Source: Eledone cirrhosa (lineage: Eukaryota). From it: a DNA stretch of 64,000 nucleotides. The translations under genes and the position numbers were made by a program. The first letter of the stretch is position 1. Each line of letters begins with the position of its first letter. The DNA is taken from contig OZ024740.1 in assembly GCA_964016885.1 (NCBI GenBank), forward strand, positions 325,128,001 through 325,192,000, written 5' to 3'. Positions 16,692-50,339 of this stretch are shown here, one piece after another. The notes under the pieces were generated by a model. It searched no databases. It saw nothing but the letters and a program-made list of their open reading frames with translations, and had not been told where the DNA came from.

Positions 16692-17566
16692 ATGTATATG
16701 TATATATAATTATATATATCTGTACGTATATGTATGTGTGTATATCATTGTATTTTATATGTATCTGTTGCAATTGTGTGTGTGTATATATATATATGTG
16801 TGTGTGTGTTTATATGTGTGTGTGTGTATGTGTATTTTTATATATATATGTTTACGTGTGTATATATATAATAGCCTCAGAAACGGCTTGAACTCTGTCG
16901 TCGGGGTCATACTTTTTCCTATATGTATATATATATATATATGTATATGTATGTATATGTATGTATATATGTGTGTATTTGTATGGTTGTGTGTGTGTAT
17001 ATATATATATATGTGTGTATGTGTATGTATATGCATAATTACATACAGAGAGATTTAATGCCTATTTTCTGTGATTATTTGCTCCAGGAACTTGTTGAGT
17101 GCTTTAAATCAGCTATAAACATTTATACCCTTATCTATTTATTTATTTATTTATTTATTATTTGTCGTATTCCCAACTATTTGTTTACCCCTTTCACTTT
17201 TTATTTATGTATATATATAATATTTAAGTATTTTCTTATATATATATATATATATTTAAGAGTTAAACAAGGTTCAATGAATACATCTAAGAATGAGTTT
17301 TACACACATACATGTGTGTGTATGTATTTATATGTGTGTGTGTGTGTGTATATGTATGTGTATATATATATATATAAATATGAGGTAAATATCTCATTGA
17401 GCACTAAGTAAACACTGAGATATATAGGGTGTCTATAATATAATTGTTGTTTTATGGTACTAATTCGAGATACCAGAACTATAAAAATTGATGAGCAGAA
17501 CAAACAAACATTAAACAATCCTTTAAATAAATTAAAAAATGATTTAAATATCTACCTGTTCATAAT

Positions 17567-17645
17567 GCTATTACCGGCGGTTTCGATCCACAAAAAATTG
17601 GAAATTCAGAGAATTTCCAACGGAAAGCAGATTTCATCAGATAGC
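17567..17645 (-). ncRNA. Type I hammerhead ribozyme (left arm)
   Basis: Reverse complement of the 18063-18141 motif. Confidence 0.88.
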
Positions 17646-18062
17646 TATTTCCTTTCTATAGGACATTTGTCCCACGGTCAGCAAATATAATGCTAACTAC
17701 CAGCTCGTATGGGCTCATGCCGTTAAAGTGACCCATACGTGACCTGGCCACTAGAGCAAGCGGGAATATTATAGACTTGTTGATGGCTTGGCTGCTAAAA
17801 AAATAGCAGTAAGCAACAACGAATTTTTTTCTCTACATAGATTGGAGAATATATAAAAGTGAGGTAAAAAATGAGGAAAAAAATTCGTTGTTGCTTACTG
17901 CTATTTTTTTAGCAGCCAAGCCATCAACAAGTCTATAATATTCCCGCTTGCTCTAGTGGCCAGGTCACGTATGGGTCACTTTAACGGCATGAGCCCATAC
18001 GAGCTGGTAGTTAGCATTATATTTGCGGACCATGGGAAAAAATCTCCTATAGAAAGGAAATA

Positions 18063-18141
18063 GCTATCTGATGAAATCTGCTTTCCGTTGGAAATTCTCT
18101 GAATTTCCAATTTTTTGTGGATCGAAACCGCCGGTAATAGC
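18063..18141 (+). ncRNA. Type I hammerhead ribozyme (right arm)
   Basis: Stem I GCTAT/ATAGC; CTGATGA; stem II ATCTGC/GTGGAT extended by TTGGAAATT/AATTTCCAA; GAAAC-cgccg-GTA. Confidence 0.88.
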
Positions 18142-18219
18142 ATTATGAACAGGTAGATATTTAAATCATTTTTTAATTTATTTAAAGGATTGTTTTCTGT
18201 TTGTTTGTTCTGCTCATCA

Positions 18220-18278
<59 letters not shown>

Positions 18279-22205: not shown

Positions 22206-22792
22206 AGTGAATGACATATATACATACATAAATATCTAATGATATAAATGCATAATGACGGTATGACGCATATCAAATCTTATATTTTGTGTGATAAAAA
22301 CGTACTTACACACCATTGTACCTTTGAAATATGAATAATAAAATATATATTTTGATTATGAGAATATTTTTCATTTATTATTATTTTGAATAATATTAAA
22401 TACTCCAGGAAAATAGACTGTCGAGTGCTTCTAATCTATTGTAAAATTTTGTTCGTTGAATAATCAACGAACCATATTAATATTTGGTTATATATATATA
22501 TATAGAGAGAGAGAGAATTTAGTATATCTGCCAACATATGCGTACAGATGTACACTAATGCTAGCAAATACATAAGTTATGTCATAGTACCTAGGTGGTT
22601 CAATGCAGGAGGATGCAGAACAGTAATATGAAAGACGTAAAATAAGAAAATTTAAAAAAAAATTAAAAATTAACTTACTTACTAAAATTTTCACTCCAAC
22701 TAATTAGTTTCTGTAATGGGATAAAGATAGTTACGTAATATAACCATCGAGAATTCAATTTTTAATTTTTTTTAATTTTCTTATTTTACGTC

Positions 22793-22848
<56 letters not shown>

Positions 22849-22891
22849 AAGTTAAATAAAAGTCAAATGATTAAATTTAGCTTCGTTTATT

Positions 22892-22946
22892 ACTGCTATA
22901 TATATTTCAGTGACAGCCATCTTTGGCTGTGACCTCTTCAGGCAGT
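22892..22946 (-). ncRNA. Type I hammerhead ribozyme
   Basis: Minus strand: ACTGC CTGAAGA GGTcACAGCC aaagat GGCTGTcACT GAAA TATATA TA GCAGT. Confidence 0.88.
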
Positions 22947-23047
22947 TTGAATTAGTATGGTATAGACAAGGAACTGGGCATATCAGAGTATTGACAATAT
23001 CATACACCTAAACAACATATGTACTTGTCTATACCATACTAATTCAA

Positions 23048-23102
23048 ACTGCCTGAAGATGTCACAGCCAAAGATGGTTGTCACTGAAATATATATAGCA
23101 GT
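23048..23102 (+). ncRNA. Type I hammerhead ribozyme
   Basis: ACTGC CTGAAGA tgtcACAGCC aaagat GGTTGTcact GAAA TATATA TA GCAGT, with a palindromic stem III. Confidence 0.85.
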
Positions 23103-23415
23103 AATAAACGAAGCTAAATTTTAATCATTTGACTTTTATTTAACTTTATTTTACACTACTCCGGAGTAACCAAACCAACCTGCGCACTTCGTCGAGTGCT
23201 CCAGCCTGCATACTGAGGTGTTGGTATACAACCAACATAAACTCAAAATCTATATATATATATATATATCTGTGTGTGTGAGAAAAACCACAGACCCTCC
23301 ATCTTAACTCACCTTTTGAAAAGCAGAACTGCGAAACCGGTAAAGGAACCAAATAAATTTTTTTTTTTTTTTTTTAAATAAGACTCCAGCTGCATTTTCG
23401 ATTTCATCTCTTTTT

Positions 23416-23446
<31 letters not shown>

Positions 23447-23496
23447 AGAGACGTAAGATAAGAAAATTATAAAATTAACTTACTTACTAAAATATC

Positions 23497-23578
23497 ACTT
23501 CCAACTAATTAGTTTCTGGAATGGAGTAGATACATCTTCCGAAGAAGGTGTGGAGAAACATCCCGTCATCAGGAAAGT
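23497..23578 (-). ncRNA. Type I hammerhead ribozyme
   Basis: Reverse complement of 24274-24355. Confidence 0.82.
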
Positions 23579-24273
23579 CTATTCTCATATAAGCTTCGAG
23601 GCAAAGCGAGGACTCTGGAAGCTTACTAAAAAATAAATCAGTGAATAGGAAATAGCAAAGCGTGGACTTACTTCCTAGCCATTGAGAAAATCACTGCCTC
23701 TGTGTCTGTGGCAAATTCAAAAAGAATCGAGCACGTGACATCGAGGTCAATCGGTGGAAAGTGGGTTGTTAATAAGACAGCGGCCAGCCTACTACCGTAG
23801 CAGCAGTCATGGCCAGTATTGCTCGACAAATATTTTGGAGATAATAATAAAGAATGTATATCTAGTAACATATATATACATACAAATGCATATCGATGCT
23901 AGCAAATATATAGGTTTTGTCTTAATAACATTGTGGTTCAATGCATGGGGTTGCAGAACAATAATATAAGAGACGTAAGATAAGAAAATTATAAAATTAA
24001 CTTACTTACTAAAATATCACTTCCAACTAATTAGTTTCTGGAATGGAGTAGATACATCTTCCGAAGAAGGTGTAGAGAAACATCCCGTCATCTTCCACCG
24101 ATTGACCTCGATGTCACGTGTTCCATTCTTTTTGAATTTGCCACAGACACAGAGGCAGTGATTTTCTCAATGGCTAGGAAGTAAGTCCACGCTTTGCTAT
24201 TTCCTATTCACTGATTTATTTTTTAGTAAGCTTCCAGAGTCCTCGCTTTGCCTGGAAGCTTATATGAGAATAG

Positions 24274-24355
24274 ACTTTCCTGATGACGGGATGTTTCTCC
24301 ACACCTTCTTCGGAAGATGTATCTACTCCATTCCAGAAACTAATTAGTTGGAAGT
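24274..24355 (+). ncRNA. Type I hammerhead ribozyme with an extended stem II capped by UUCG
   Basis: Stem I ACTTTC/GGAAGT; CTGATGA; GGGAT/ATTCC with inner ACAcCTTC-TTCG-GAAGaTGT; GAAAC TAATTA GTT. Confidence 0.82.
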
Positions 24356-24524
24356 GATATTTTAGTAAGTAAGTTAATTTTATAATTTTCTTATCTTACG
24401 TCTCTTATATTATTGTTCTGCAACCCCGTGCATTGAACCACAATGTTATTAAGACAAAACCTATATATTTGCTAGCATCGATATGCATTTGTATGTATAT
24501 ATATGTTACTAGATATAAATTCAT

Positions 24525-24616
<92 letters not shown>

Positions 24617-28371: not shown

Positions 28372-28863
28372 GTTCTTTGAGTCTCAGTCATTGATGTTAT
28401 TTAACTGGAAAGTTTGTTAAAATGAATATCAAGCCACTACCTGCACCCTCAGATATTCAGGACGTATCGGCTGGTTCTTGCCGTTCCCAGCAAGCGTGCC
28501 TTTTGAAGTGTTCCAAAAAACGGGGCTGGACTAATCTTCTTTAACCATCCTTGGAAACTCTTTGAGATAATACCTAGTGCGCCTATGACAATCGGGACGA
28601 CCTTGATCTCATGGCAGTTCCAAATCCTTTTAAACTCCTACTTTAAATCCTGGTATCGGTTAATTTTCTCCCTCTCCTTTTCTTACACTCTCGTGTCAAA
28701 TGGGCAGGCTATATCTGCAATCAGGCACAATCTTTTTTCCTTGTCAAAAACCACCAGGTCAGGCCTATTGTGTTCTAATTGCTTGTCCGTCTGTATCCTA
28801 AAATCCCATAGCACCTTCACTCGATCGTTTTCTATCACCGACTCTGGCTTATGCTCATACCAC
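28372..28863 (-). mobile_element. R4/Dong-clade non-LTR retrotransposon 3' fragment (restriction-like endonuclease)
   Basis: Minus-strand WYEHKPE..VLWDFRIQTD..HNRPDLVV..DIACPFD..EKEREKINRYQDLK..VVPIVIGALG..LQKARLLGTA, with a (TAA)n tail and (TAT)n on both sides. Confidence 0.85.
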
Positions 28864-28879
28864 TATTATTATTGTTATT

Positions 28880-30007
28880 CAGCACCCTCTACGCGGAGAG
28901 CTGGGCATGCCGTGGCTAATGATGCGCAGATATGCGTTGAGGCTGCGACATCTCCAGATATTCTGCTTAAACGGTGAACAGGTGTGGTCGCTGTTTATCA
29001 GACGGGCCTTTCTGCAGTTCATTTGCTTGACTGAGCTGCAGTCCTGGGTCAAGAAGAGACCGAGACTGGGCGACTGGCACCTGAAATGTTGCCAGGCACT
29101 CACTGCCCCCTACCAAGCGGGCAATTCGATCAGTGGAACTTCCACTCTCGAGTTCTATAGAGGATTAGTGGTGGGCAAGTGCGATGACGCTCGGAGAAGC
29201 TTTGGGCCTCGACGAAGTCGAACTGACCAGTCTGTACCGGAGGACTTTCGAGCCGGGGACGATGGATAATTTCCAGAAATCCCTCGGGGGGCATTGCCGG
29301 TTCGGGATAAACTCTACAGGCACGGAAGTGCTGTCAGACGGACCTGCCCAAGATGCGCACAGAACGACGAAACCGTTCTGCATCCACTTGTCCAATGTCC
29401 GTGCATTACTGACTTGTGGAGTTATGTCGAACAGCTACTGTCGCGTGTGGGTCGACCCGCCGCCTTCCTTAGGTCAGGAAGAGCAGGAAATGTTCCTCTG
29501 TCTGGTGGCAGTTGCGAAAGAGGTTATATGGTGGACCAGATTAAAAGGACTGAAGACAGACACTTTTCTCTTCGGCCAATCCCTCATCAACTTCTTCACG
29601 TTTCATCTGGAAAGGAAGGTGAGGGTGGAGAGAGAAGTGCTGCCCCCCCCCCCCCCCCCCAGTACATTTGCTAAAATGTGGATGTATGTCGCTAGAATGG
29701 CTCGTGTGAATGGGCCTACTCTGACCAAGCGCCTATAGGCTAGCTAACTTGAGGAGAGGGGTGCTCTCCCTGGGTGCCCTAAAAGCGCAGGGTGGATTGG
29801 TGGGGTACCCTAGTCACCCCAGGGTCGTCCACCCCCTATCGGGGAATTTATTTTGTTATATTTATGCATAGTTTATTTTATATTTTTATATCTTCATTGT
29901 TAAATTAATCTTGCCATTGTGCACTTTTACTCGACCTTATTGTAAACCCACTGTCCCTGTCTTTGTATTGTCCCCTACATGTCGGCCCTTGAGGCTAATA
30001 AATGAAA

Positions 30008-30009
<2 letters not shown>
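28880..30009 (+). mobile_element. 5'-truncated L1/Tx1 LINE (ORF2 C-terminus and 3' UTR)
   Basis: LGMPWLMMRR..LPVRDKLYRH..CPRC..ETVLH..C zinc motif is homologous to 34620-35500; AATAAA is followed by (ATT)n at 30010-30066. Confidence 0.9.
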
Positions 30010-30066
<57 letters not shown>

Positions 30067-30243
30067 GGCGACCTACGTAGGAAATCGTATTATCGTGAGC
30101 TCCGCAAAGGTTTGTTGTTTTCAGTTGTTTAAAATTGCCATTTATGGAAAATTGTTATGAAAAGGACATTCAAAAAGATTGGGGCCTTGAGTCCAAAATT
30201 TAAACTTTTATAATTAAGAAACAAAAATTTCTTTGAAAAAATC

Positions 30244-32161
30244 ATGGACGACTCACAGTCACACCATCCTCACAAACTAACACCTCACACCGACACCACC
30301 ATTGTAAATATTACTACATTTGCCAACACTAAAAATATAAGCAGTAGCAATAATTTAAATTTGTCACATGCAGACATTCATTTCACGCCATTACCAATGA
30401 CTGCAGGTTTTGAAGCCGCCACCCCCACCACCACCGCAGCGACAACAGAAACAAAAGAAAAAAATAAATTATCTCGTGACATCGAAATGGATTCACCTAG
30501 AATGGACTCTTCCACACCGAACACCACTGACGCCACCAACACCACAACTGAAACTAAAAATAACAATAACAAAAATGAGAATAAGCAACAACAATGAGAA
30601 TAAGAAAACCACCCTGTCTTTTGCCAGAGTAGCAAAAAAGTGCGAAGCCATCCAGGTACACTCAGGAGGAATTAGATGAAGCAAAGAGAATGGTAAAGAA
30701 AGATGGGGGCAGGGTTACCCCCCCCCCCCCCCCCACTGATAAAATGGAGCATCGGCGCCTATGCACCGTGTCTTATCGGACGATTAACATAAAATCGCGC
30801 CGAGTGGAACGGGCATCCGAATCCCAAATCCAAAAAGCTTTGGGACATGTGTGGGCAAAAAAAACCCACATCAGATGTGGGCAGAAATATGGAACCGTGT
30901 ACGTGTTCTTTGGAACACCACAGGGGGCCAGAGAACACTCCATGGCCCCATTAAGAAGTGACGACTTCACACTCGTCCCAAGCTATTGTAGCCAGAGACT
31001 CGTGAAGATCAGGGTGACCCACGTTCCACCGGCCATCAAAATTCCCTGGCTAATGGCTGCCGTCCTCGCCGGCATCGAAGCCAACACCAAGATAATCGAA
31101 ATAGCGAAAGAAAATCAGGAGAACTGGTCAGGATCTGGGATGGAGCTCCTGATCCAAGCGAACCAAAAAAGCATTGAGGAGATCCCAGAGGTAATAGACC
31201 ACCTCACTGACGGCAGCCATCTCACCGTAATCGTCGAGTGCAGAAGGCCTAGGTGTGTCGTTTGTGGTGAAGGAACCCACCTAAGGGCTTTCTGCTCTCA
31301 GGCTAAAAGGTTGAGTCCACCTCTCTTACCCACCCAGTGACTCAACCATCAACACCACCAGCAGCAGAAATGGCAGCAACAACTGTAGCAGCAGCAACAG
31401 AAGCAACTGTAACAGCATCAACCCCAGCAACAGTAGCAAAACCAACACCACCACCACTCAACGCGCCAGAACTACCACCAGCGCCTACATTATCCACCAC
31501 GCCACAACCAAAACCAACGCCTGTGGAGGATTTTCCACTCCCCGACCTATCGCAACTGGAGACAGATTGTGACGACGAGGAGTGGGACACGATATCAGGA
31601 AAAAAGAAAAAAAAATGAAACCAAAAAAGAAAAAATCCTCTTCCCTCCCCCTCCAAAAACAAAATACAGAGGGAAACAAATAAACTATCAAACAAAAAAG
31701 TTAGGACAGCTATGCCACCATCCACACCAGCATCACCACCCCCATCACCACAAACACCAACACCATCGCCATCATTAACCCCAACACCACCATCACCAAC
31801 ACCACAAAAGTCACCAAAAAGCGAAACAGAAACAAACCCACAACAAACGCAAACTAAACAAAACAACCAAAACGATACACACTACACAGCATTAAATTTG
31901 AACAACAACCAATTATTACACTACATCCAACACAACACCAGCATCACAGAAAAAGACTACACAACAACCAAAAAGTTCACACCACCTCCACACATACAAA
32001 TCACTCGCATCACACAGAAAACGTACACGACACTAAAACAAAAAATCCCCAAAGACATCGGAGACTTCCGACAAGCACTCTCCAGGAGGGTTTATAAGGA
32101 CATCCTTCCGGAGGAGGCCAGAAGCAGTGAAAAGGATGGAGAAACCATCCTTCCTCTATGA
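30244..32161 (+). pseudogene. Tx1 ORF1 (gag-like, frameshifted)
   Basis: ORF pieces 30244-30597, 30690-31340 (CVVCGEGTHLRAFC zinc knuckle), 31337-31618 and 31712-32161 (Pro/Thr-rich). Confidence 0.8.
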
Positions 32162-32207
32162 GAAGTAAGGTAAGTGGTCTTTCCCATCTTTTCCACTCCA
32201 TTTCAAC

Positions 32208-35200
32208 ATGACCTCGCTCAGAATAGGCAGCATAAATGCGCGTGGCTTGGGGTCGTCATAGAAGCAGGGCCCCCTGCTCAACGACCTCAGGTCACAAAAC
32301 ATAGGGGGAGGAGTTGCTGTGCTTTTTCGGAGAGGTTTGGATGTCGCCATACGGGCCATCTTCCTGGACCCAGAAGGTAACTTGGTGGTGCTGGACGTGA
32401 CCAGCGGAGACGGGCAAGCTTTCAGGCTAGTGGCCGTCTATGCCCCGACAGTAGCAGGGCGGCCTGATTTCTTCCGGCGTCTGGAGACCTTTCTTGGAAC
32501 GTCCCGCTCTTTAGAGTTAGTGGGCGACTGGAACGGGATCTTAGATGCACGCTGGGACTGTGTGGGATTAGCGGATAGGGGAGGAGGGTGCAAGAGCCTC
32601 ACCAACCTGCTCAGGCGTTTTGAACTGTCTGACAGGTACCGATTGGATTTCCCGAATGTGCCAATGTGGACTTGGACAAATCGCATAGGGTCATCCAGAT
32701 CATATCTAGATAGAGTATTTTGTAGGGAAATAGATAGGTCTAACATAGGCTGTCCACAATTCAAGATAGTCAGCTACACGGACCTCAAATTCGTGATCTG
32801 TGTACTTGACTTAGATAGCCTTCATAGACGAGGACCCGGATACTGGAAGCTAAACGCGTCCTTACCAGCGCGCAAGGCCTACAGAGACCGGATTAGCGAA
32901 CTAGTTAAGCGGGCGTTGGCGGGGGCCATCGTCAACAACAAGTGGTGGTTTCCTCTGAAAAGAGCGATTAGAATAGAGTCTATTAGGTTTAGTAAGGCTT
33001 TAGCAATAGAGAAATATAGAGCAAAGGGAGAACTAGTTAGAAATTAGACGAGGCGCTGAGCAAAGGCATCGCGACCGACGTACTTGCGGCGAAATTGGCC
33101 CTTGACCAATTCTTCAATGCAAAGCACGAAGGCTGCGTTGTCAGAGCAAGGGTGCGTGCTCTCAGACACGAGGGGACGAAAGCCGTTCAATGGGCCCGAG
33201 TGGCGGAGGCGCGTCGTGGCAACAAAGCCACGATCCGGTCTTTGGTGGACCACGACGGGCGCATGCTACTCGATCCCGGGCAAATGTGTGAAGCTTTTCA
33301 GCGACACTTCGCTCAGCTGTTCGGGGGCAGCGGTGGGCCGGGTCGAGGGATGGACTTTAGTGTCTACCTCGGCGGACTGCCGCGGCTCTCGGCCACTGAG
33401 GCGGAGTGTTGCAAAAAGTCGATAACAGCCGCTGAAGTACGGGAGGCAATGACTGGCTGCACAAGGGGTAAATCGCCTGGTTTGGTTGATCTGCCCTATG
33501 AACTTTACGTACAGATGCCAGACTTGTTCGGTGGCCTCTTGGCGGACGTCTACTACAACTGGCAACAGAGCGGGAGAATTCCCAGCTCTGTGAGCCGAGG
33601 AGCTGTGGCGCTGCTGAGAAAGGATCCGAACAAGGGGGATAACATAGATAATTTCAGGCCCATAACTCTGCTAAACACAGAGTTCAAGATTTTGGCCAAG
33701 GTGCTAGCAAAGAGGTTGGCGCTTGTCGTTGGTCGTCTGGTGGGAGAGGCGCAGACATGCGCCATTCCCGACAGATCCATCCACGACAACCTCCACCTCA
33801 TGCGATACATCGTAGAGAGGGTAGCTAGGGAACCTGGCACGGGTGGGTCCTTGATCAATTTAGATCAGTCGAAAGCTTTCGATAGGGTCGACCATTGTTA
33901 CCTAGCGAGAGTCCTGAGGGCGGCTGGCTTTGGGCCCGTCTTGAGAGGCTGGATCGCTACCATGCACAGCGACATCTGCTCTGTGGTGAGAGTGAACGGT
34001 CACCTTTCAGAACCGTTCAACATCATGCGCTCGGTCCGCCAAGGATGTCCCCTCTCGTCCCTCTTGTACGTATTGACTCTCGAGCCATTACTGCACAAAC
34101 TGGAGACGTTGAGGGGGATCCCGTGCGAATTAGGATGCGGAAGATCCGTGTCAGCATATGTGGACGATGTCACCGTAGTGGTGTCGAACGCCAAACACAT
34201 CGAGCGATCGGCACTACACTAAGAGAATACGAAGCGGTGACAGGAGCATTGATCAACCAAGAAAAGTCAGTGGGCCTGCAGCTCGGAACCTGGAGAGGCA
34301 GGTCCATGCCGTCCAATAGCGTCGTCGGGCGCTGGACGGAGGCACCGGTTAAATTGCTAGGGGTCTGGTTCGGTCCGGACCTCCAGTTTGACAAAAACTG
34401 GGAGGAGATGACGAGCAGAGTGGCTTCTCTCACCCAGAAATGGGCGGAGAGGAAGCCTGACAGGTCGAGCGGAGGTGGCTAACGCGTACATCGCGTCCCT
34501 CATCTACTACCGCCTGACCGTCGTACCTTCTCCTAAGCCCCGCCTGACTGCGCTGGTGCGTTTGCTCTTTCGCTTTTTGTGGAAGGGACGCGCACCGATG
34601 GTCAGGCGGTCCATCTGCTGTCAACACCCGCTACGTGGAGGGCTGGGCATGCCGTGGCTGATGATGCGCAGACACGCGCTCAGGCTACGTCATCTCCACC
34701 TCTTCCTCGACGGCGATCAGGTGTGATCGCCGTTTGCTAGACGCGTCTTTCCCCAGCTCGTCTCCTTGACGGAGCTGCAGTCTTGGGTCAAGCGAAGACC
34801 GAGAGGGAGCGCTTGGAGACTGGAATGTCTTCAGGCGCTCACAGCCCTAGACCAATCGGGCAATGTGATCGGTGGAAACTCCACCTTGGCGTTCTATAGA
34901 GGATTAGTGGAGGGGAAGAGCGACGACGTACTTGGAGAAACTCTAGGCGTCGACGAAAATCAACTAGCCAATCTCTTCGGAACAACTTTCGGGCCGGGGC
35001 CTATGGACAACTTCCAGAAATCCCTGGCCCGGCAGTGCTACCGAGGAGCTTTGCCAGTTCGGGATAAACTCTACAGACATAGAGGTGCCGTCAGTCGGGC
35101 ATGTCCGAGATGCGCGCAGGGCGACGAAACCGTCCTGCACGCACTCGTCCAGTGTCCGAGCTTACTGACTTGTGGGTTTATGTCGAACACCTGCTGCCAC

Positions 35201-35500
35201 GTGTAGGACGGATCCAGCTATCAGCTGAGTCCATCGTGAGGATTGCCCCGCCCTCCTCCTTTAGCCGGGAAGGGCAGGCAGTTTTATCTGTCTGGTGGCC
35301 ATGGCGAAAGAGATAGTATGGTGGACACGTTTGAAAGGGCTGAAGACGAGCACTTACCTCTTCGGTGATGCCCTGATTAACTTTTTCAAATTTCATTTGA
35401 AAAGGAAAATCAGGGTAGAGAGGGAAGTCCTCTCTTCCCAGCATTTTGTTGAAAGATGGGTGAGAGAAGCAACTATGACCCGAGTGAATGGCACTTGCCC
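32208..35500 (+). pseudogene. Tx1 ORF2 (APE endonuclease + reverse transcriptase), with stops and frameshifts
   Basis: MTSLRIGSINARGL, VYAP, GDWN, SYLDRV, GYWKLNAS, KSPG, FRPITLLNTEFKILAK, LDQSKAFDRV, SVRQGCPLS and YVDD. Confidence 0.92.
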
Positions 35501-35709
35501 TGGTGGTCAGGGTCACTGTGGCCTTTTAATGGGCTTTCTCCACAAATGTCCCTCGGAAGCCTACCCCCTATTGGGGAATTTTTCATTGTTATTTTTTTTA
35601 TTACATCCTCTGTTTTTTACATGCAGAAATGCCCATTTGTACCGTCCTGTATTGTCCTGTACTGTCCTTAATGTCTACTTTATGTAAACCCTTGTGGTTA
35701 ATAAAGAAA

Positions 35710-35761
<52 letters not shown>

Positions 35762-36340
35762 TTAATATCACCACGACTATTTATTACAATTATTTATATA
35801 TCTACTGTTGTTTTCTTTTTCTTTTTGTTGTCCCCTTTTCCTTTACTTGTTGTAAACCCCACTTTTATAGTTCCCAATGTCTTGGGCCTTTATAGCCAAT
35901 AAAAGAAATCGTTATCATTATTATTAGCACCATCCTACTCCTTATGCCTCTCTTCCTCCTCATCATCTTCAATTTCCAACATCAACATCATTATCATCAC
36001 CATTTCCAGTATTAGAAATTTGAATAAGAATTTAGAAGAAAAAAAATGTAAATGCATTATATTCAACGAATGGATTTTCCTAATGGGGAATTGTTAGCAA
36101 TTGTCTTATAAGAGGTTGTTTACACTCTAGTAGATGGATTAAAGACATCTATGGAATGGCGGAGTGGGGATGGGATGGTATACAATATATATATATATGT
36201 GTGTAGGCAGAAAAAAACAAAACAAATGCAATTGTAAGTCTTACCTCATATCGATTATCAGATAACAATAAAATACTTTAGAAATCAATAAAAACTCCCA
36301 TTTATATGTATGAGTGTTTATGTACACATATATATATATG

Positions 36341-41257: not shown

Positions 41258-41380
41258 ATGTTTTGTTATAATGACGCTGAAAACACCGGTCCACGTCCGA
41301 TCACTGAAGTTAAGCAACGTCGAGCCTAGTTAGTACTTAGATGAGTGATCGCTTGGGAAACCTAGGGGCTATAAGCTTTT
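41258..41380 (+). pseudogene. 5S rRNA pseudogene
   Basis: gaaaacaccggtccacgtccgatcactgaagttaagcaacgtcgagcctagttagtacttagatgagtgatcgcttgggaa..aagctttt aligns by eye to metazoan 5S rRNA (box A, box C, T-run) with many substitutions and a decayed 5' end. Confidence 0.85.
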
Positions 41381-46265: not shown

Positions 46266-47622
46266 TATATATATGTTTATACATACATACATACATACAT
46301 ACATACGTACATACCTATATACTATTTATTCACTTATGTATTTATGTATATATTTAAAACCAGAAATACTCTCTTATGTGTTTTTCCGTCCTTCTGTCTT
46401 AACTTGCTTCATTTGTGTTGTGTGTTTTGTCTATATTGTTTGTGTTATTTCCATTTTATTTCCAGTTCGCTCTTTAATCCAGTGTTTACTCCATGCCGAT
46501 CTAAGCATTCAGGCAGGCGGTTAATCCATAATGCGTCTTTTACTCCGTAATACATTACTCATCATAATGCCGGATTTATGATTAATCTGACAGATGTATT
46601 TGCATGAAGACATTAAGATGTAATCTTCCTAAGAGAATGGTTTTGCAAACAGTCTTCCTCTCGCAGTCATACAGAGATACACAGATACAAACACAAACAC
46701 ATACAATCACACATATACACAGATACAAACACAGATACACACGCAGATACACAGACACAATCACACATATACACAGATACAAACACAGATATACACACAG
46801 ACACAAACACAATCACACATATACACATACAGTCACATATATGCTGACACAAATGAAGACAGACACATATACACATACAGCCACATATATACATACACAA
46901 ATGAACACACACACACGCACACACACACACACATATATATGTATATATATATTTATATTTATACATACATGCACATATATATATATATATATACATGCGC
47001 AGACACATATATAACATACACAAACACACACATACATAAACATACATATGCTCATACAAGCTGACTTACACAAACGTACTGTAAGACGTGTATACACAGA
47101 CACAGATTATGTAAGCAAACACACAGACAAATACACAGACATGCTGACATGCAAACGCATGCACCAAATATACACTCACACATTAAGTGACACGTATAAA
47201 TAGGCTCACATAGAAATATACACACACGCATGTATTTCTCCCCAAGACAGAAAGAATTGGTTTTCAACCGTAAAACAAGTGATTTTAGTATGAATTTAGA
47301 CATCAACTGCGTTATTAAGTATGTATGTATGCATGCATGTACGCATGTATGTATATATGTTTGTTTGTATGGTTATATGTATGTAATATATACATATATA
47401 TATATGTAAATATCTTTAAGTCGTTTGGAAGCCTCGACAATGCAAATGGGTAAATCTCCGGGTAACAAGGTCCGGTGGTGGAGAGAGAGATGTAAGTGGG
47501 TGTACGTTGAGATGCGTGGTGTGTATAAGATGTGTGAGATGTGTAGAATGAAGGGAAGAGTATAAAGGATAAAAATAAGAATAACAACACAAGAGAAAGT
47601 TACCTTGGGAGAGATTTAATAG

Positions 47623-47660
47623 TCCCTATATATTTCGGATTCACATCCATCAACTGGGGA
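47623..47660 (-). ncRNA. Hammerhead-like motif with variant core (CAGTTGA)
   Basis: TCCC CAGTTGA tGGAT GTGA ATCC GAAA TATA TA GGGA; a mirror copy lies at 49097-49132. Confidence 0.6.
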
Positions 47661-47718
47661 TTTTTTCCGGGGTGGGGGAAAAGGTTGTCTGTCGGACAAG
47701 TCCGGAATGCGTCTTTCG

Positions 47719-48692
47719 GGATTGCCCATGGGATCAAGCCTATCAGGTGTGCTAGCGATCTCCTACATGGACAACCTCGAACGCAAGGCACTCAACGCCT
47801 GCCACCCTAACGCCGTAGCCTTTTTCTCAAGATACGTGGACGATATCCTCATCCTCACATCTTCCCAAGACACGGCGAACAGAATCTATGAGACGTTCAA
47901 CAACACGGACGAGAACATTCACTTCAGTGTTGAACACCCCAACGAAGACGGGTCACTTGCCCTCCTCGACTTCCGAATCAACATCACGGAACAAGGAGGG
48001 AACCACTGCAACTTCTACAGAAAGGCAGCCTGCAGGGACCTATTCGTTCACTACAAGTCCGCCCTCCCTAACAGTGCCAAAAGAGGATACATCACGAACG
48101 AGATCGCGTGAATCAAAAACAGATGCAGACGAACGGGTACCCTACCTCGATCACAGACAGAATAGGAGACACCAGACGCAAGAGACAGAGAAGCACCCAA
48201 GGCAAGTGCTTCCTTAAAATGCCACACCTGGGCAAGAAAACCACCAACGCTATCCGCAAGGATATACGGAGGGAGGGCCTCGACATCCACCTGGCCCACT
48301 CGGGCCCCTCCCTCCGAAGATGCCTCTCCAGGAATCCCGAAAAATCTACTGACGCATGCTCCCTCAGAGACTGCCCGATACGCCATGCTAACTGTTGCCT
48401 ACGCACATACGTCGTGTATAAGATAGAATGTGACAGGTGCAACCAATACTACATAGGTAGCACAATCCGACCTTTGCACATCCGGATCAAGGAACACACT
48501 AAAACCAAGGCCTCGTCTTTCCGGAAACACATAGACAAATGCGGAAACAAAGAAGGAAGGCCCATTGTCACAATTCTAGCGACTGAAAGAAACGTCGGCA
48601 CGTTACGTATCAAGGAAGCGCTTTTTATCAAACGAGTGCAACCGCAAATAAACAACCGATCAGAGAGAAGCGAAATGAAATGGCTGGTTTAG
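47719..48692 (+). pseudogene. PLE RT C-terminal half + GIY-YIG endonuclease
   Basis: GLPMGSSLS, RYVDDILIL, LALLDFRI, YRK, NGYP, VVYKIECDRC..YIGST.RPLHIRIKEH and EALFIK..PQIN, with one break near 48110. Confidence 0.9.
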
Positions 48693-49096
48693 GTTAACAA
48701 GCGATGCAACAACACACAACACACGCACACACACACACACGCAACCGAGACAACTACACACACACACGCACACACACACAGTAGCATTCCACCATACGAA
48801 CATACTACACTGCCAATACAGATGAACAAGGCAACAACACACACACACACACTCAAGCGAGACAACAACACACACACACACACGCACACAGTAACATTTA
48901 ACAAACAGGCAGAGAATGGACTGACAGCTAGCGCCATCCCACTCCCTCATTCGGCCGCTGACCTCTGTACGACCGACCCCATTTCAGGCGCACGCGCGCT
49001 CTGCCGAATACCTCAGATATTCAAAACAACAAACAGCGAAAGACGCGTTCCGGACTTGTCCGACAGACAACCTTTTCCCCCACGCCGGAAAAAAAA

Positions 49097-49132
49097 CCCA
49101 GTTGATGGATGTGAATCCGAAATATATAGGGA
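49097..49132 (+). ncRNA. Hammerhead-like motif with variant core in the PLE 3' pseudo-LTR
   Basis: CC CAGTTGA tGGAT GTGA ATCC GAAA TATA TA GG, with a GNRA-capped stem II and palindromic stem III. Confidence 0.6.
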
Positions 49133-49384
49133 CTATTAAATCTCTCCCAAGGTAACTCTCTCTTCTGTTGTTATTCTTATTTTTATCCTTTATACTCTTC
49201 CCTTCATTCTACACATCTCACACATCTTATACACACCACGCATCTCAACGTACACCCACTTACTTCTCTCCACCACCGGACCTTGTTACCCGGAGATTTA
49301 CCCATTTGCATTGTCGAGGCTTCCAAACGACTTAAAGATATTTACTTATTGTTCCACAATGCTTCAAGCAAACTTCAATACTCT

Positions 49385-50339
<955 letters not shown>

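What the first reader, a model, noticed from the sequence alone, without database searches (positions are those of the whole stretch)
23446..24527. Three-copy hammerhead unit with both tandem and inverted arrangement
Seen: a minus-strand HHR at 23497-23578, a second minus-strand copy at 24019-24092 cut inside the catalytic core (GATGA kept, CT lost), and a plus-strand copy at 24274-24355. The two minus-strand cleavage sites are about 522 nt apart, and stem II is long and UUCG-capped. Established: retrozymes are non-coding units bounded by tandem HHRs that release monomers which can circularise. Inference: a roughly 520-nt non-coding monomer repeated in tandem and then inverted by template switching. 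It is the best retrozyme-like candidate in the window, and a diverged relative sits at 22520-22800.
Basis: partly seen in the sequence, partly recalled or inferred. Interest (0 to 1): 0.8.

Follow-up and report, generated by a model that had tools for sequence, protein, structure and literature searches.

The report
Hammerhead repeat with Penelope insertion footprint
This is one copy of a common, protein-free 522-base repeat with a predicted self-cutting RNA fold, laid down as two back-to-back arms whose ends look like those left by Penelope-type jumping genes, so it is likely a new example of a known class (animal retrozymes) that likely borrows the Penelope enzyme to spread.

Summary
In detail: type I hammerhead folds at 23497-23578 (-) and 24274-24355 (+), a core-truncated copy at 24019-24092 (-), sites 522 nt apart. 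Rfam finds none, but the fold beats shuffles and family variants spare its pairs. The locus is one two-armed insertion in (TA)n: a 651-nt minus arm (1.25 units, B-C-D-A-B) head-to-head with a 438-nt plus arm (A-B-C). Public runs show a high-copy, ORF-less family in which the unit's joints recur, so it is not a stub of an ORF-bearing element. The arms end at two sites about 120 nt apart that bracket conserved hairpins; the same ends recur in other copies and in the diverged neighbour. Three other elements in the window, one an RT/GIY-YIG Penelope fragment, show the same one-sided-tail layout. This matches the published Penelope footprint (two internal reverse-transcription starts). Simple fold-back template switching cannot build both arms. 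Verdict: new member of the non-LTR retrozyme / non-autonomous Penelope class, likely in an octopus genome. Cleavage, expression and circularity are untested; read-through RNA of this copy is predicted to be a hairpin that hides the ribozymes.

The parts
23442..24092 (-). Long arm, 651 nt, segments B-C-D-A-B in sense order (1.25 units of a 522-nt repeat); 3' end against (TA)n at the first fixed site
24093..24530 (+). Short arm, 438 nt, segments A-B-C; 3' end against (TA)n at the second fixed site
23497..23578 (-). Complete type I hammerhead fold, predicted cut between 23503 and 23502 (GUU)
24274..24355 (+). Complete type I hammerhead fold, predicted cut between 24349 and 24350; stem II = 6 bp + internal loop + UUCG hairpin (24301-24320)
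   Evidence: family variation
24019..24092 (-). 5'-truncated hammerhead (no C3, U4 or stem I 5' strand); keeps palindrome, GUU site and stem I 3' strand, so it could still serve as substrate half for the downstream core
   Evidence: predicted
23503..24024 (-). Site-to-site monomer, 522 nt, 37% GC, longest ATG ORF as a circle 67 aa, circular MFE -131 kcal/mol vs -98 +/- 6 in 60 shuffles
24411..24527 (+). One-sided tail (segment C, about 120 nt) between the two fixed ends: a small hairpin and a long hairpin also formed by the diverged relative; likely the reverse transcriptase docking module
   Evidence: function inferred
24092..24093 (.). Head-to-head junction of the two 5'-truncated arms, no microhomology
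23416..23445 (.). Left (TA)n flank
24528..24613 (.). Right (TA)n flank
22518..22800 (.). Separate insertion of a sister family: long minus arm (about 22518-22729) ending at the second fixed site and short plus arm (about 22761-22797) ending at the first; only the 3' half of a hammerhead
   Evidence: its segment-C sequence appears as loose ends in all 7 runs laid

Best explanation
This is a single insertion of a high-copy, ORF-less 522-nt repeat family with a predicted type I hammerhead (a non-LTR retrozyme), likely copied into a (TA)n microsatellite by the borrowed reverse transcriptase-endonuclease of a Penelope-like element. Shown by sequence: two 5'-truncated arms joined head-to-head, outer ends at two family-fixed sites about 120 nt apart, (TA)n on both sides, a circularly permuted unit without an ORF. 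Inferred: the GIY-YIG endonuclease cuts both strands of the AT-rich target; each cut end primes cDNA at one of two internal start sites that flank a hairpin module downstream of the hammerhead; the two cDNAs stop after 651 and 438 nt and are joined bluntly by repair. The template was longer than one cleaved linear monomer, because the long arm reads through both predicted cut sites: it was an uncut tandem transcript (I put about 0.6) or a re-ligated circle (about 0.4). The hammerhead is inferred to have been functional in the family (dimer-type, palindromic stem III) and would cut tandem transcripts into 522-nt units. This particular copy is probably not a source element: read-through RNA is predicted to form a long hairpin that buries both cores.
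For: Anatomy. Fixed ends: (AT)n loose ends at the first site in 9, 13 and 17 contigs of runs X1-X3 (one sample) and 1 of X4; at or near the second site in X4 (1 contig, 2 contigs) and X5 (1 contig); same two ends in the diverged neighbour. Same layout in 3 other elements of the window, tails of about 107, 100 and 41 nt, the last on an RT + GIY-YIG fragment. Published match: inverted 5'-truncated copy, one-sided tail and (TA)n bias of Penelope-like elements (PMC8557442, passages); the tail is the stretch between two internal RT start sites and both target strands are cut and extended in vitro (PMC11167929). Family: 1235, 1260 and 1257 contigs laid in X1-X3, 3646 reads in X13, 49 contigs in X5 (another organism label), 3 in X7. 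Permuted unit in other copies: a 587-nt X4 contig about 87% identical runs C-D-A-B (joint 24527 to 24093 with 87 letters between); 2 of 24 pieces shown bridge D|A with 31 or more letters each side and X13 read depth does not drop there. Structure kept: of the variant rows shown (40 of 64) that fall in 24274-24355, none hits the 12 fixed core positions, stem I or stem III; 24284 is the free N7, 24290 turns G-U into A-U, 24302+24319 turn C-G into U-A, 24304 turns C.A into U-A (3'-side changes in about 373-381 of 397-399 raw reads). Monomer is self-paired, z -5.3. Arms differ by only 3/189, 0-1/129 and 3/120 while most family contigs are 90-99% alike, so both arms come from one source.
Against: No Rfam hammerhead match; C.A at the base of stem II where PMC4209133 reports a highly conserved G10.1-C11.1; GUU rather than GUC (that GUU cuts less well is recalled). 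No autonomous partner found: the monomer has no similarity to the pLTR of the window's Penelope fragment (233 of 300 shuffles score as well) and no genome is held. The tail is about 120 nt against 30-40 nt in the papers read. Only 1.25 tandem units here, and no piece laid spans the whole stretch or two full units. Loose-end tables were cut (24 of 232 and 22 of 100 rows seen), so rare joints to an ORF could be hidden. X1-X4 are one study. One variant (24316 G>A) breaks a pair of the window's hairpin unless its partner changes too, which the joint letters suggest but do not prove read by read. Eight of nine Xenopus retrozyme dimers tested in the 2026 preprint did not cleave.
Confidence: 0.8

Rival explanations
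1. The arms are just 5'-truncated ends (pLTR plus tail) of an autonomous Penelope-like element, and the 522-nt period is a one-off deletion of the ORF at this locus.
For: Footprint is that of Penelope elements; opposite-strand hammerhead pairs 100-700 bp apart are described for truncated elements in PMC4209133; depth in public runs is highest over B and C.
Against: The D-A joint recurs in other copies: X2 and X4 contigs, flat X13 depth, D-like loose ends before 24096 in X4 and X5. No ORF over 67 aa; the two ORF-like frames that overlap the unit have no Pfam match; best tblastn of the window's Penelope peptides against the locus E 0.21.
Confidence: 0.08
2. One reading: a tandem unit was copied once and the enzyme then switched template and folded back, creating the inverted arm.
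For: The arms are 98-99% identical inverted repeats that abut directly.
Against: Fold-back from either end lacks a segment (C after B, or D after C); no microhomology at the joint; both outer ends coincide with family-fixed sites, as in four other two-armed elements of the window.
Confidence: 0.04
3. The repeat is a passive satellite or dead relic rearranged at DNA level (break repair in (TA)n); the hammerhead no longer matters.
For: AT microsatellites are fragile (general knowledge); non-standard base of stem II; no Rfam match; in vitro the anole Penelope protein does not need hammerhead cleavage.
Against: Fixed ends shared by many dispersed copies and by a 77% identical sister family; structure-sparing variation. 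This copy itself may well be inert, which the best explanation allows.
Confidence: 0.05
4. The family is mobilised by a LINE-type enzyme (the window also holds APE-RT LINE fragments at 28.5-35.9 kb).
For: LINE fragments are present; LINE twin priming gives 5' inversions (recalled); PMC7229834 names LINEs as possible helpers.
Against: No poly(A) tail; twin priming needs the two parts to fit end to end, whereas here they overlap by 249 nt or miss 273 nt; both outer ends are fixed internal sites.
Confidence: 0.03

Closest known systems
Metazoan non-LTR retrozymes (Cervera and de la Pena 2020, PMC7229834, parts 2-4 of 6 read; Li, Clavereau and Pollet 2026, bioRxiv 10.64898/2026.07.22.740005, parts 1-3 of 5 read)
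   Same: ORF-less unit with a type I hammerhead and palindromic stem III, GC under 50%, high copy number, repeated head-to-tail, predicted self-paired monomer, co-occurrence with Penelope-like elements; a mismatch at the base of stem II has a precedent (U.U in axolotl HHR_Amex2).
   Different: 522 nt is above the 150-450 nt of the 2020 paper (inside the 51-972 nt of the preprint); stem II carries a large insert; only one complete hammerhead in the tandem arm, so the locus fails the preprint's 'active' rule; two-armed insertion with a tail is not described for retrozymes in the parts read; RNA, cleavage and circles not shown here.
Endonuclease-bearing Penelope-like elements and their pLTR hammerheads (PMC4209133 parts 1-2 of 4; PMC8557442 12 of 24 passages; PMC11167929 parts 1-2 of 4)
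   Same: Inverted 5'-truncated arm, one-sided tail, AT-rich/(TA)n target without visible duplication, ends downstream of the hammerhead, dimer-type hammerhead with long stem II.
   Different: No RT/GIY-YIG ORF; tail about 120 nt rather than 30-40 nt; no sequence match to the one Penelope pLTR in the window.
Non-autonomous Chlamys elements such as MRC1 of Chlamydomonas (PMC8557442, passage)
   Same: Non-autonomous Penelope derivatives with pLTRs and head-to-tail copies, microsatellite bias.
   Different: Most Chlamys elements lack hammerheads and target (CA)n or (C)n; algal host; those share 3' sequence with an autonomous family, which was not found here.

Membership tests
Non-LTR retrozyme | Type I hammerhead with intact core in the unit | tested here: met
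   core untouched by the variants shown; but no Rfam match and C.A at the base of stem II
Non-LTR retrozyme | Head-to-tail repeat of a unit of a few hundred bases | tested here: met
   1.25 units here; C-D-A-B run in an X4 contig and D-A joint in other runs; long arrays not seen
Non-LTR retrozyme | [quoted passage not shown] | tested here: not met
   upstream copy lacks C3, U4 and stem I 5' strand; applies to this locus, not to the family
Non-LTR retrozyme | Non-coding, GC under 50% | tested here: met
   longest ATG ORF 67 aa, 37% GC
Non-LTR retrozyme | Monomer predicted highly self-paired | tested here: met
   circular MFE -131 vs -98 +/- 6 kcal/mol, 0 of 60 shuffles as low; 63% paired vs 56%
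Non-LTR retrozyme | No primer-binding site or polypurine tract | not tested
   no dedicated search run
Non-LTR retrozyme | Expressed as linear and circular monomer RNA | not testable with these tools
   needs RNA data from the host
Non-LTR retrozyme | Self-cleavage of the RNA | not testable with these tools
   only indirect: one contig in each of X1 and X2 (one sample) breaks exactly at the predicted cut site
Penelope-like element (autonomous) | ORF with RT and GIY-YIG endonuclease | tested here: not met
Penelope-type insertion footprint | Inverted 5'-truncated copy adjacent to the 5' end | tested here: met
Penelope-type insertion footprint | One-sided tail between two fixed start sites | tested here: met
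   length about 120 nt, longer than the published 30-40 nt
Penelope-type insertion footprint | AT-rich or (TA)n target | tested here: met
Non-autonomous Penelope derivative | Sequence similarity to the pLTR of an autonomous family | tested here: inconclusive
   none to the one pLTR in the window; genome not held

The most novel reading that the evidence does not exclude
The family circulates as a 522-nt self-cleaved, re-ligated circular RNA that a Penelope enzyme dimer copies from two fixed start sites flanking a 120-nt hairpin module, so each two-armed insertion is a direct record of rolling-circle reverse transcription; the core-truncated upstream copy can still be cut by the downstream core in a strand-swapped double hammerhead, so even this 1.25-unit arm could release a monomer.
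Probability: 0.3. Interest if true: 0.62.

Novelty: new member of a known kind. Interest (0 to 1): 0.4.

Why it matters
The papers read propose, from co-occurrence and sequence trees, that Penelope-like elements mobilise animal retrozymes, and leave the mechanism open. Here the insertion ends of an ORF-less unit carry the Penelope signature directly, and they name the two nucleotides where copying should start and the hairpin module that should bind the enzyme. That makes the helper and the circle-versus-linear question testable in the published in vitro system. Cephalopod retrozymes did not turn up in the literature searches. The interest is moderated because the class is known, this copy is probably inert, and earlier notes of this scan report the same footprint for several other families in this genome.

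Tried and rejected
Rfam, whole window and locus: no hammerhead. Own genome not held, so no copy count, array search or partner search. Sequencing-run search: no RNA holder listed; this says nothing on expression. Metagenome pattern scan: 3 hits, each matching only the 19-20-nt motif, rejected as chance. End piles in RAD run X13 (e.g. 23714/23717, 23990, 24029) coincide with AATT sites and were rejected as library cuts; its opposite-strand joint 23764-24026 (3 reads, 2 starts) lies in the palindrome beside such a site and was not used. RNA-editing scars: in X3 the window has G for family A at 6 places and C for family T at 9, no sense-strand excess, inconclusive. Shared promoter-like motif in the tails: focal vs 17-kb element tail 4 of 1000 shuffles, but the sister family lacks it (936 of 1000) and 10 pairs were compared; left open. 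Pfam on frames with stops could not be run; tblastn with the window's Penelope peptides gave nothing under E 0.2. Tail covariation rests on two independent sequences: 1 two-sided and 3 one-sided changes in 30 pairs, 5 pairs broken or gapped in the alignment: weak. Earlier-finding look-ups by place near, by sequence (twice) gave nothing; the two 'relatives' hits were microsatellite palindromes of another genome. Supplements of the papers were not seen; the preprint's supplementary tables and Fig. S2 of PMC11167929 may bear on tail length and on whether such ends are already documented.

Full report
Setting. The window is microsatellite-rich eukaryotic DNA with LINE fragments at 28.5-35.9 kb and a Penelope-like RT + GIY-YIG fragment at 47623-48689 (4 and 2 of the 8 frames with a Pfam hit among 124 scanned). 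The only longer homolog of that GIY-YIG frame (1 of 269 candidates) is an Octopus bimaculoides protein, 52% identical, and earlier notes of this scan call the genome octopus, so the host is likely an octopus.

Observation. All three hammerhead copies are at the stated coordinates. The complete fold has a 6-bp stem I, CUGAUGA, a C.A mismatch then a 6-bp stem II that opens into a 7x8-nt internal loop and a 7-bp UUCG hairpin, GAAA, a palindromic stem III (AACUAAUUAGUU) and a GUU site. A strict scan finds 6 such cores in the window against 1 in 30 shuffled windows together. Against it: Rfam has no hammerhead match, the isolated stretch is no more stable than shuffles, and the hammerhead fold of the 82-nt motif is 2.5 kcal/mol above its MFE.

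Anatomy. With A = 24093-24281, B = 24282-24410, C = 24411-24530 and D = 23843-23760, the minus arm reads B-C-D-A-B (651 nt) and the plus arm A-B-C (438 nt); the period is 522 nt. The arms meet 5' to 5' at 24092/24093 without microhomology and both 3' ends run into (TA)n. The repeated segments differ by 3/189, 0-1/129 and 3/120. The site-to-site monomer (24024-23503) is 37% GC, has no ATG ORF over 67 aa as a circle and folds far better than shuffles (z -5.3, 0 of 60).

Family. Twelve public runs share words with the monomer, two of them half or more; I laid 7 runs from 4 studies. X1-X3 (one sample) give 1235-1260 contigs each, most 90-99% alike; X13 gives 3646 reads; X5 and X7, under other organism labels, give 49 and 3 contigs. 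The unit's joints recur: a 587-nt X4 contig, about 87% identical, runs through C, D, A and B (joint 24527 to 24093 with 87 letters between); 2 of the 24 pieces shown bridge D|A with at least 31 letters a side; X13 depth is 724, 614 and 546 in the three bins across it; D-like letters precede A in X4 and X5 (judged by eye). No loose end shown leads from A or D into unrelated sequence of ORF type, but only 24 of 232 and 22 of 100 loose-end rows were displayed.

Selection on the fold. Among the 40 of 64 variant rows shown, 11 lie within 24274-24355. None touches the fixed core, stem I or stem III. One is the free N7 (24284); one converts G-U to A-U in stem II (24290); five rows at four places lie in the internal loop; 24302 with 24319 is a C-G to U-A swap, 24304 repairs C.A to U-A, and 24316 needs a partner change that the joint letters suggest. 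A 1-nt deletion at 24352 in stem I marks the sister family. In the tail, the common variants 24423, 24428, 24479, 24489 and a 4-nt deletion at 24490 fall in predicted loops. These are majority letters, not phased reads, and reflect selection in the family's past rather than activity of this copy.

Ends. (AT)n follows the end of B in 9, 13, 17 and 1 contigs of X1, X2, X3 and X4, and the end of C in 1-2 contigs of X4 and 1 of X5. The diverged neighbour at 22518-22800 has the same two ends with the arm lengths reversed. The stretch between the two sites folds into a small and a long hairpin in both families (z -2.3 and -3.8; covariation weak). Three more elements in the window have two opposed arms in (TA)n with a one-sided extension: 17378-18224 (107 nt), 22843-23250 (100 nt) and the ORF-bearing Penelope fragment 47408-49387 (about 41 nt). 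PMC8557442 (passages) describes this layout for Penelope-like elements, and PMC11167929 shows that a purified Penelope protein cuts and extends both strands of AT-rich DNA and starts at two internal RNA sites whose spacing is the genomic tail. I infer the same here.

Mechanism. Fold-back template switching fails: a cDNA begun at the left end has no C after its first B, and one begun at the right end has no D. LINE-type twin priming needs abutting parts; these overlap by 249 nt or miss 273 nt. Two primings at fixed sites explain everything. The long arm passes both cut sites, so the template was an uncut multimer (771 nt, B-C-D-A-B-C, would be enough) or a circle. The tandem B copies are no more diverged than the arms, which a circle predicts but a young homogeneous array also gives; in vitro, uncut RNA was the main substrate of the anole enzyme. 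One hint that cut RNA is used: a contig in each of X1 and X2 (one sample) leaves the unit exactly at the cut site 24024 and continues with letters resembling 23583 onward, i.e. a copy lacking the hammerhead up to the cut; a single event.

This copy. On the minus arm alone, a strand-swapped fold in which the intact downstream core acts on the upstream site is 4.4 kcal/mol above the MFE and the cis fold 7.2 (pairs forced, core not forced single-stranded), so the truncated copy need not block release of a monomer. But read-through RNA of either strand includes the opposite arm and is predicted 84% paired with the cores buried. Without an internal promoter, which I could not establish, this copy would give double-stranded RNA rather than circles.

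Comparison and novelty. It works like, and meets the sequence-level criteria of, a metazoan non-LTR retrozyme (PMC7229834, parts 2-4 of 6; preprint 10.64898/2026.07.22.740005, parts 1-3 of 5), except the two-complete-hammerhead rule at this locus; RNA-level criteria are untestable here. Its hammerhead resembles the Penelope pLTR type (PMC4209133, parts 1-2 of 4). Five literature searches listed no paper on cephalopod retrozymes or on Penelope-type ends of retrozymes; the library lacks most subscription papers and supplements were not seen. Earlier AI notes on this genome report the same footprint in other families; they are leads, not support, and my reading was recorded before seeing them. 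Verdict: real, a new member of a known kind, interest 0.4.

Noticed in passing
window 17378-18224: Another two-armed hammerhead element (cores at 18068+ and 17640-, A.C mismatch at base of stem II) with a 107-nt one-sided tail; its tail shares a GTTCTG...AGAC...CCTATATA pattern with the focal tail (4 of 1000 shuffles; monomer vs long arm 0 of 300).
   Followed up: partly
window 22843-23250: Third two-armed hammerhead element (cores at 23053+ and 22941-) with a 100-nt tail, lying between the focal insertion and its sister; the region is a nest of such insertions in (TA)n.
   Followed up: partly
window 47408-49387: Broken Penelope-like element: RT and GIY-YIG frames at 47623-48689, inverted pLTR copy at 47414-47718, tail of about 41 nt, a degenerate hammerhead-like motif near 49100-49135.
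   Followed up: partly
window 13985+, 55433-, 20114-, 51342+, 52540+: Further single hammerhead-like cores; 13985 passes the strict scan, 55433 a looser one, the others look degenerate. Several cores in this window have a non-G-C pair at the base of stem II.
   Followed up: partly
window 12655, 13131, 17094, 22420, 23191 (+): A GTYGAGTGCT motif recurs in several otherwise unrelated AT-rich elements; TTGTCGAG occurs in segment D (23829-) and in both Penelope pLTR copies.
   Followed up: no
window 41260-41377: 5S rRNA-like sequence (Rfam 67.6 bits) with several broken pairs, probably a pseudogene or SINE head.
   Followed up: no
window 28500-35900: LINE fragments with APE endonuclease, RT and zf-RVT frames, broken by stops and frameshifts, with a duplicated 3' part.
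   Followed up: no
window 24365-24476 (+): GTAAGT shortly after the hammerhead followed by a T-rich tract and TTTGCTAG, kept in the sister family: resembles the 5' UTR intron of Penelope elements.
   Followed up: no
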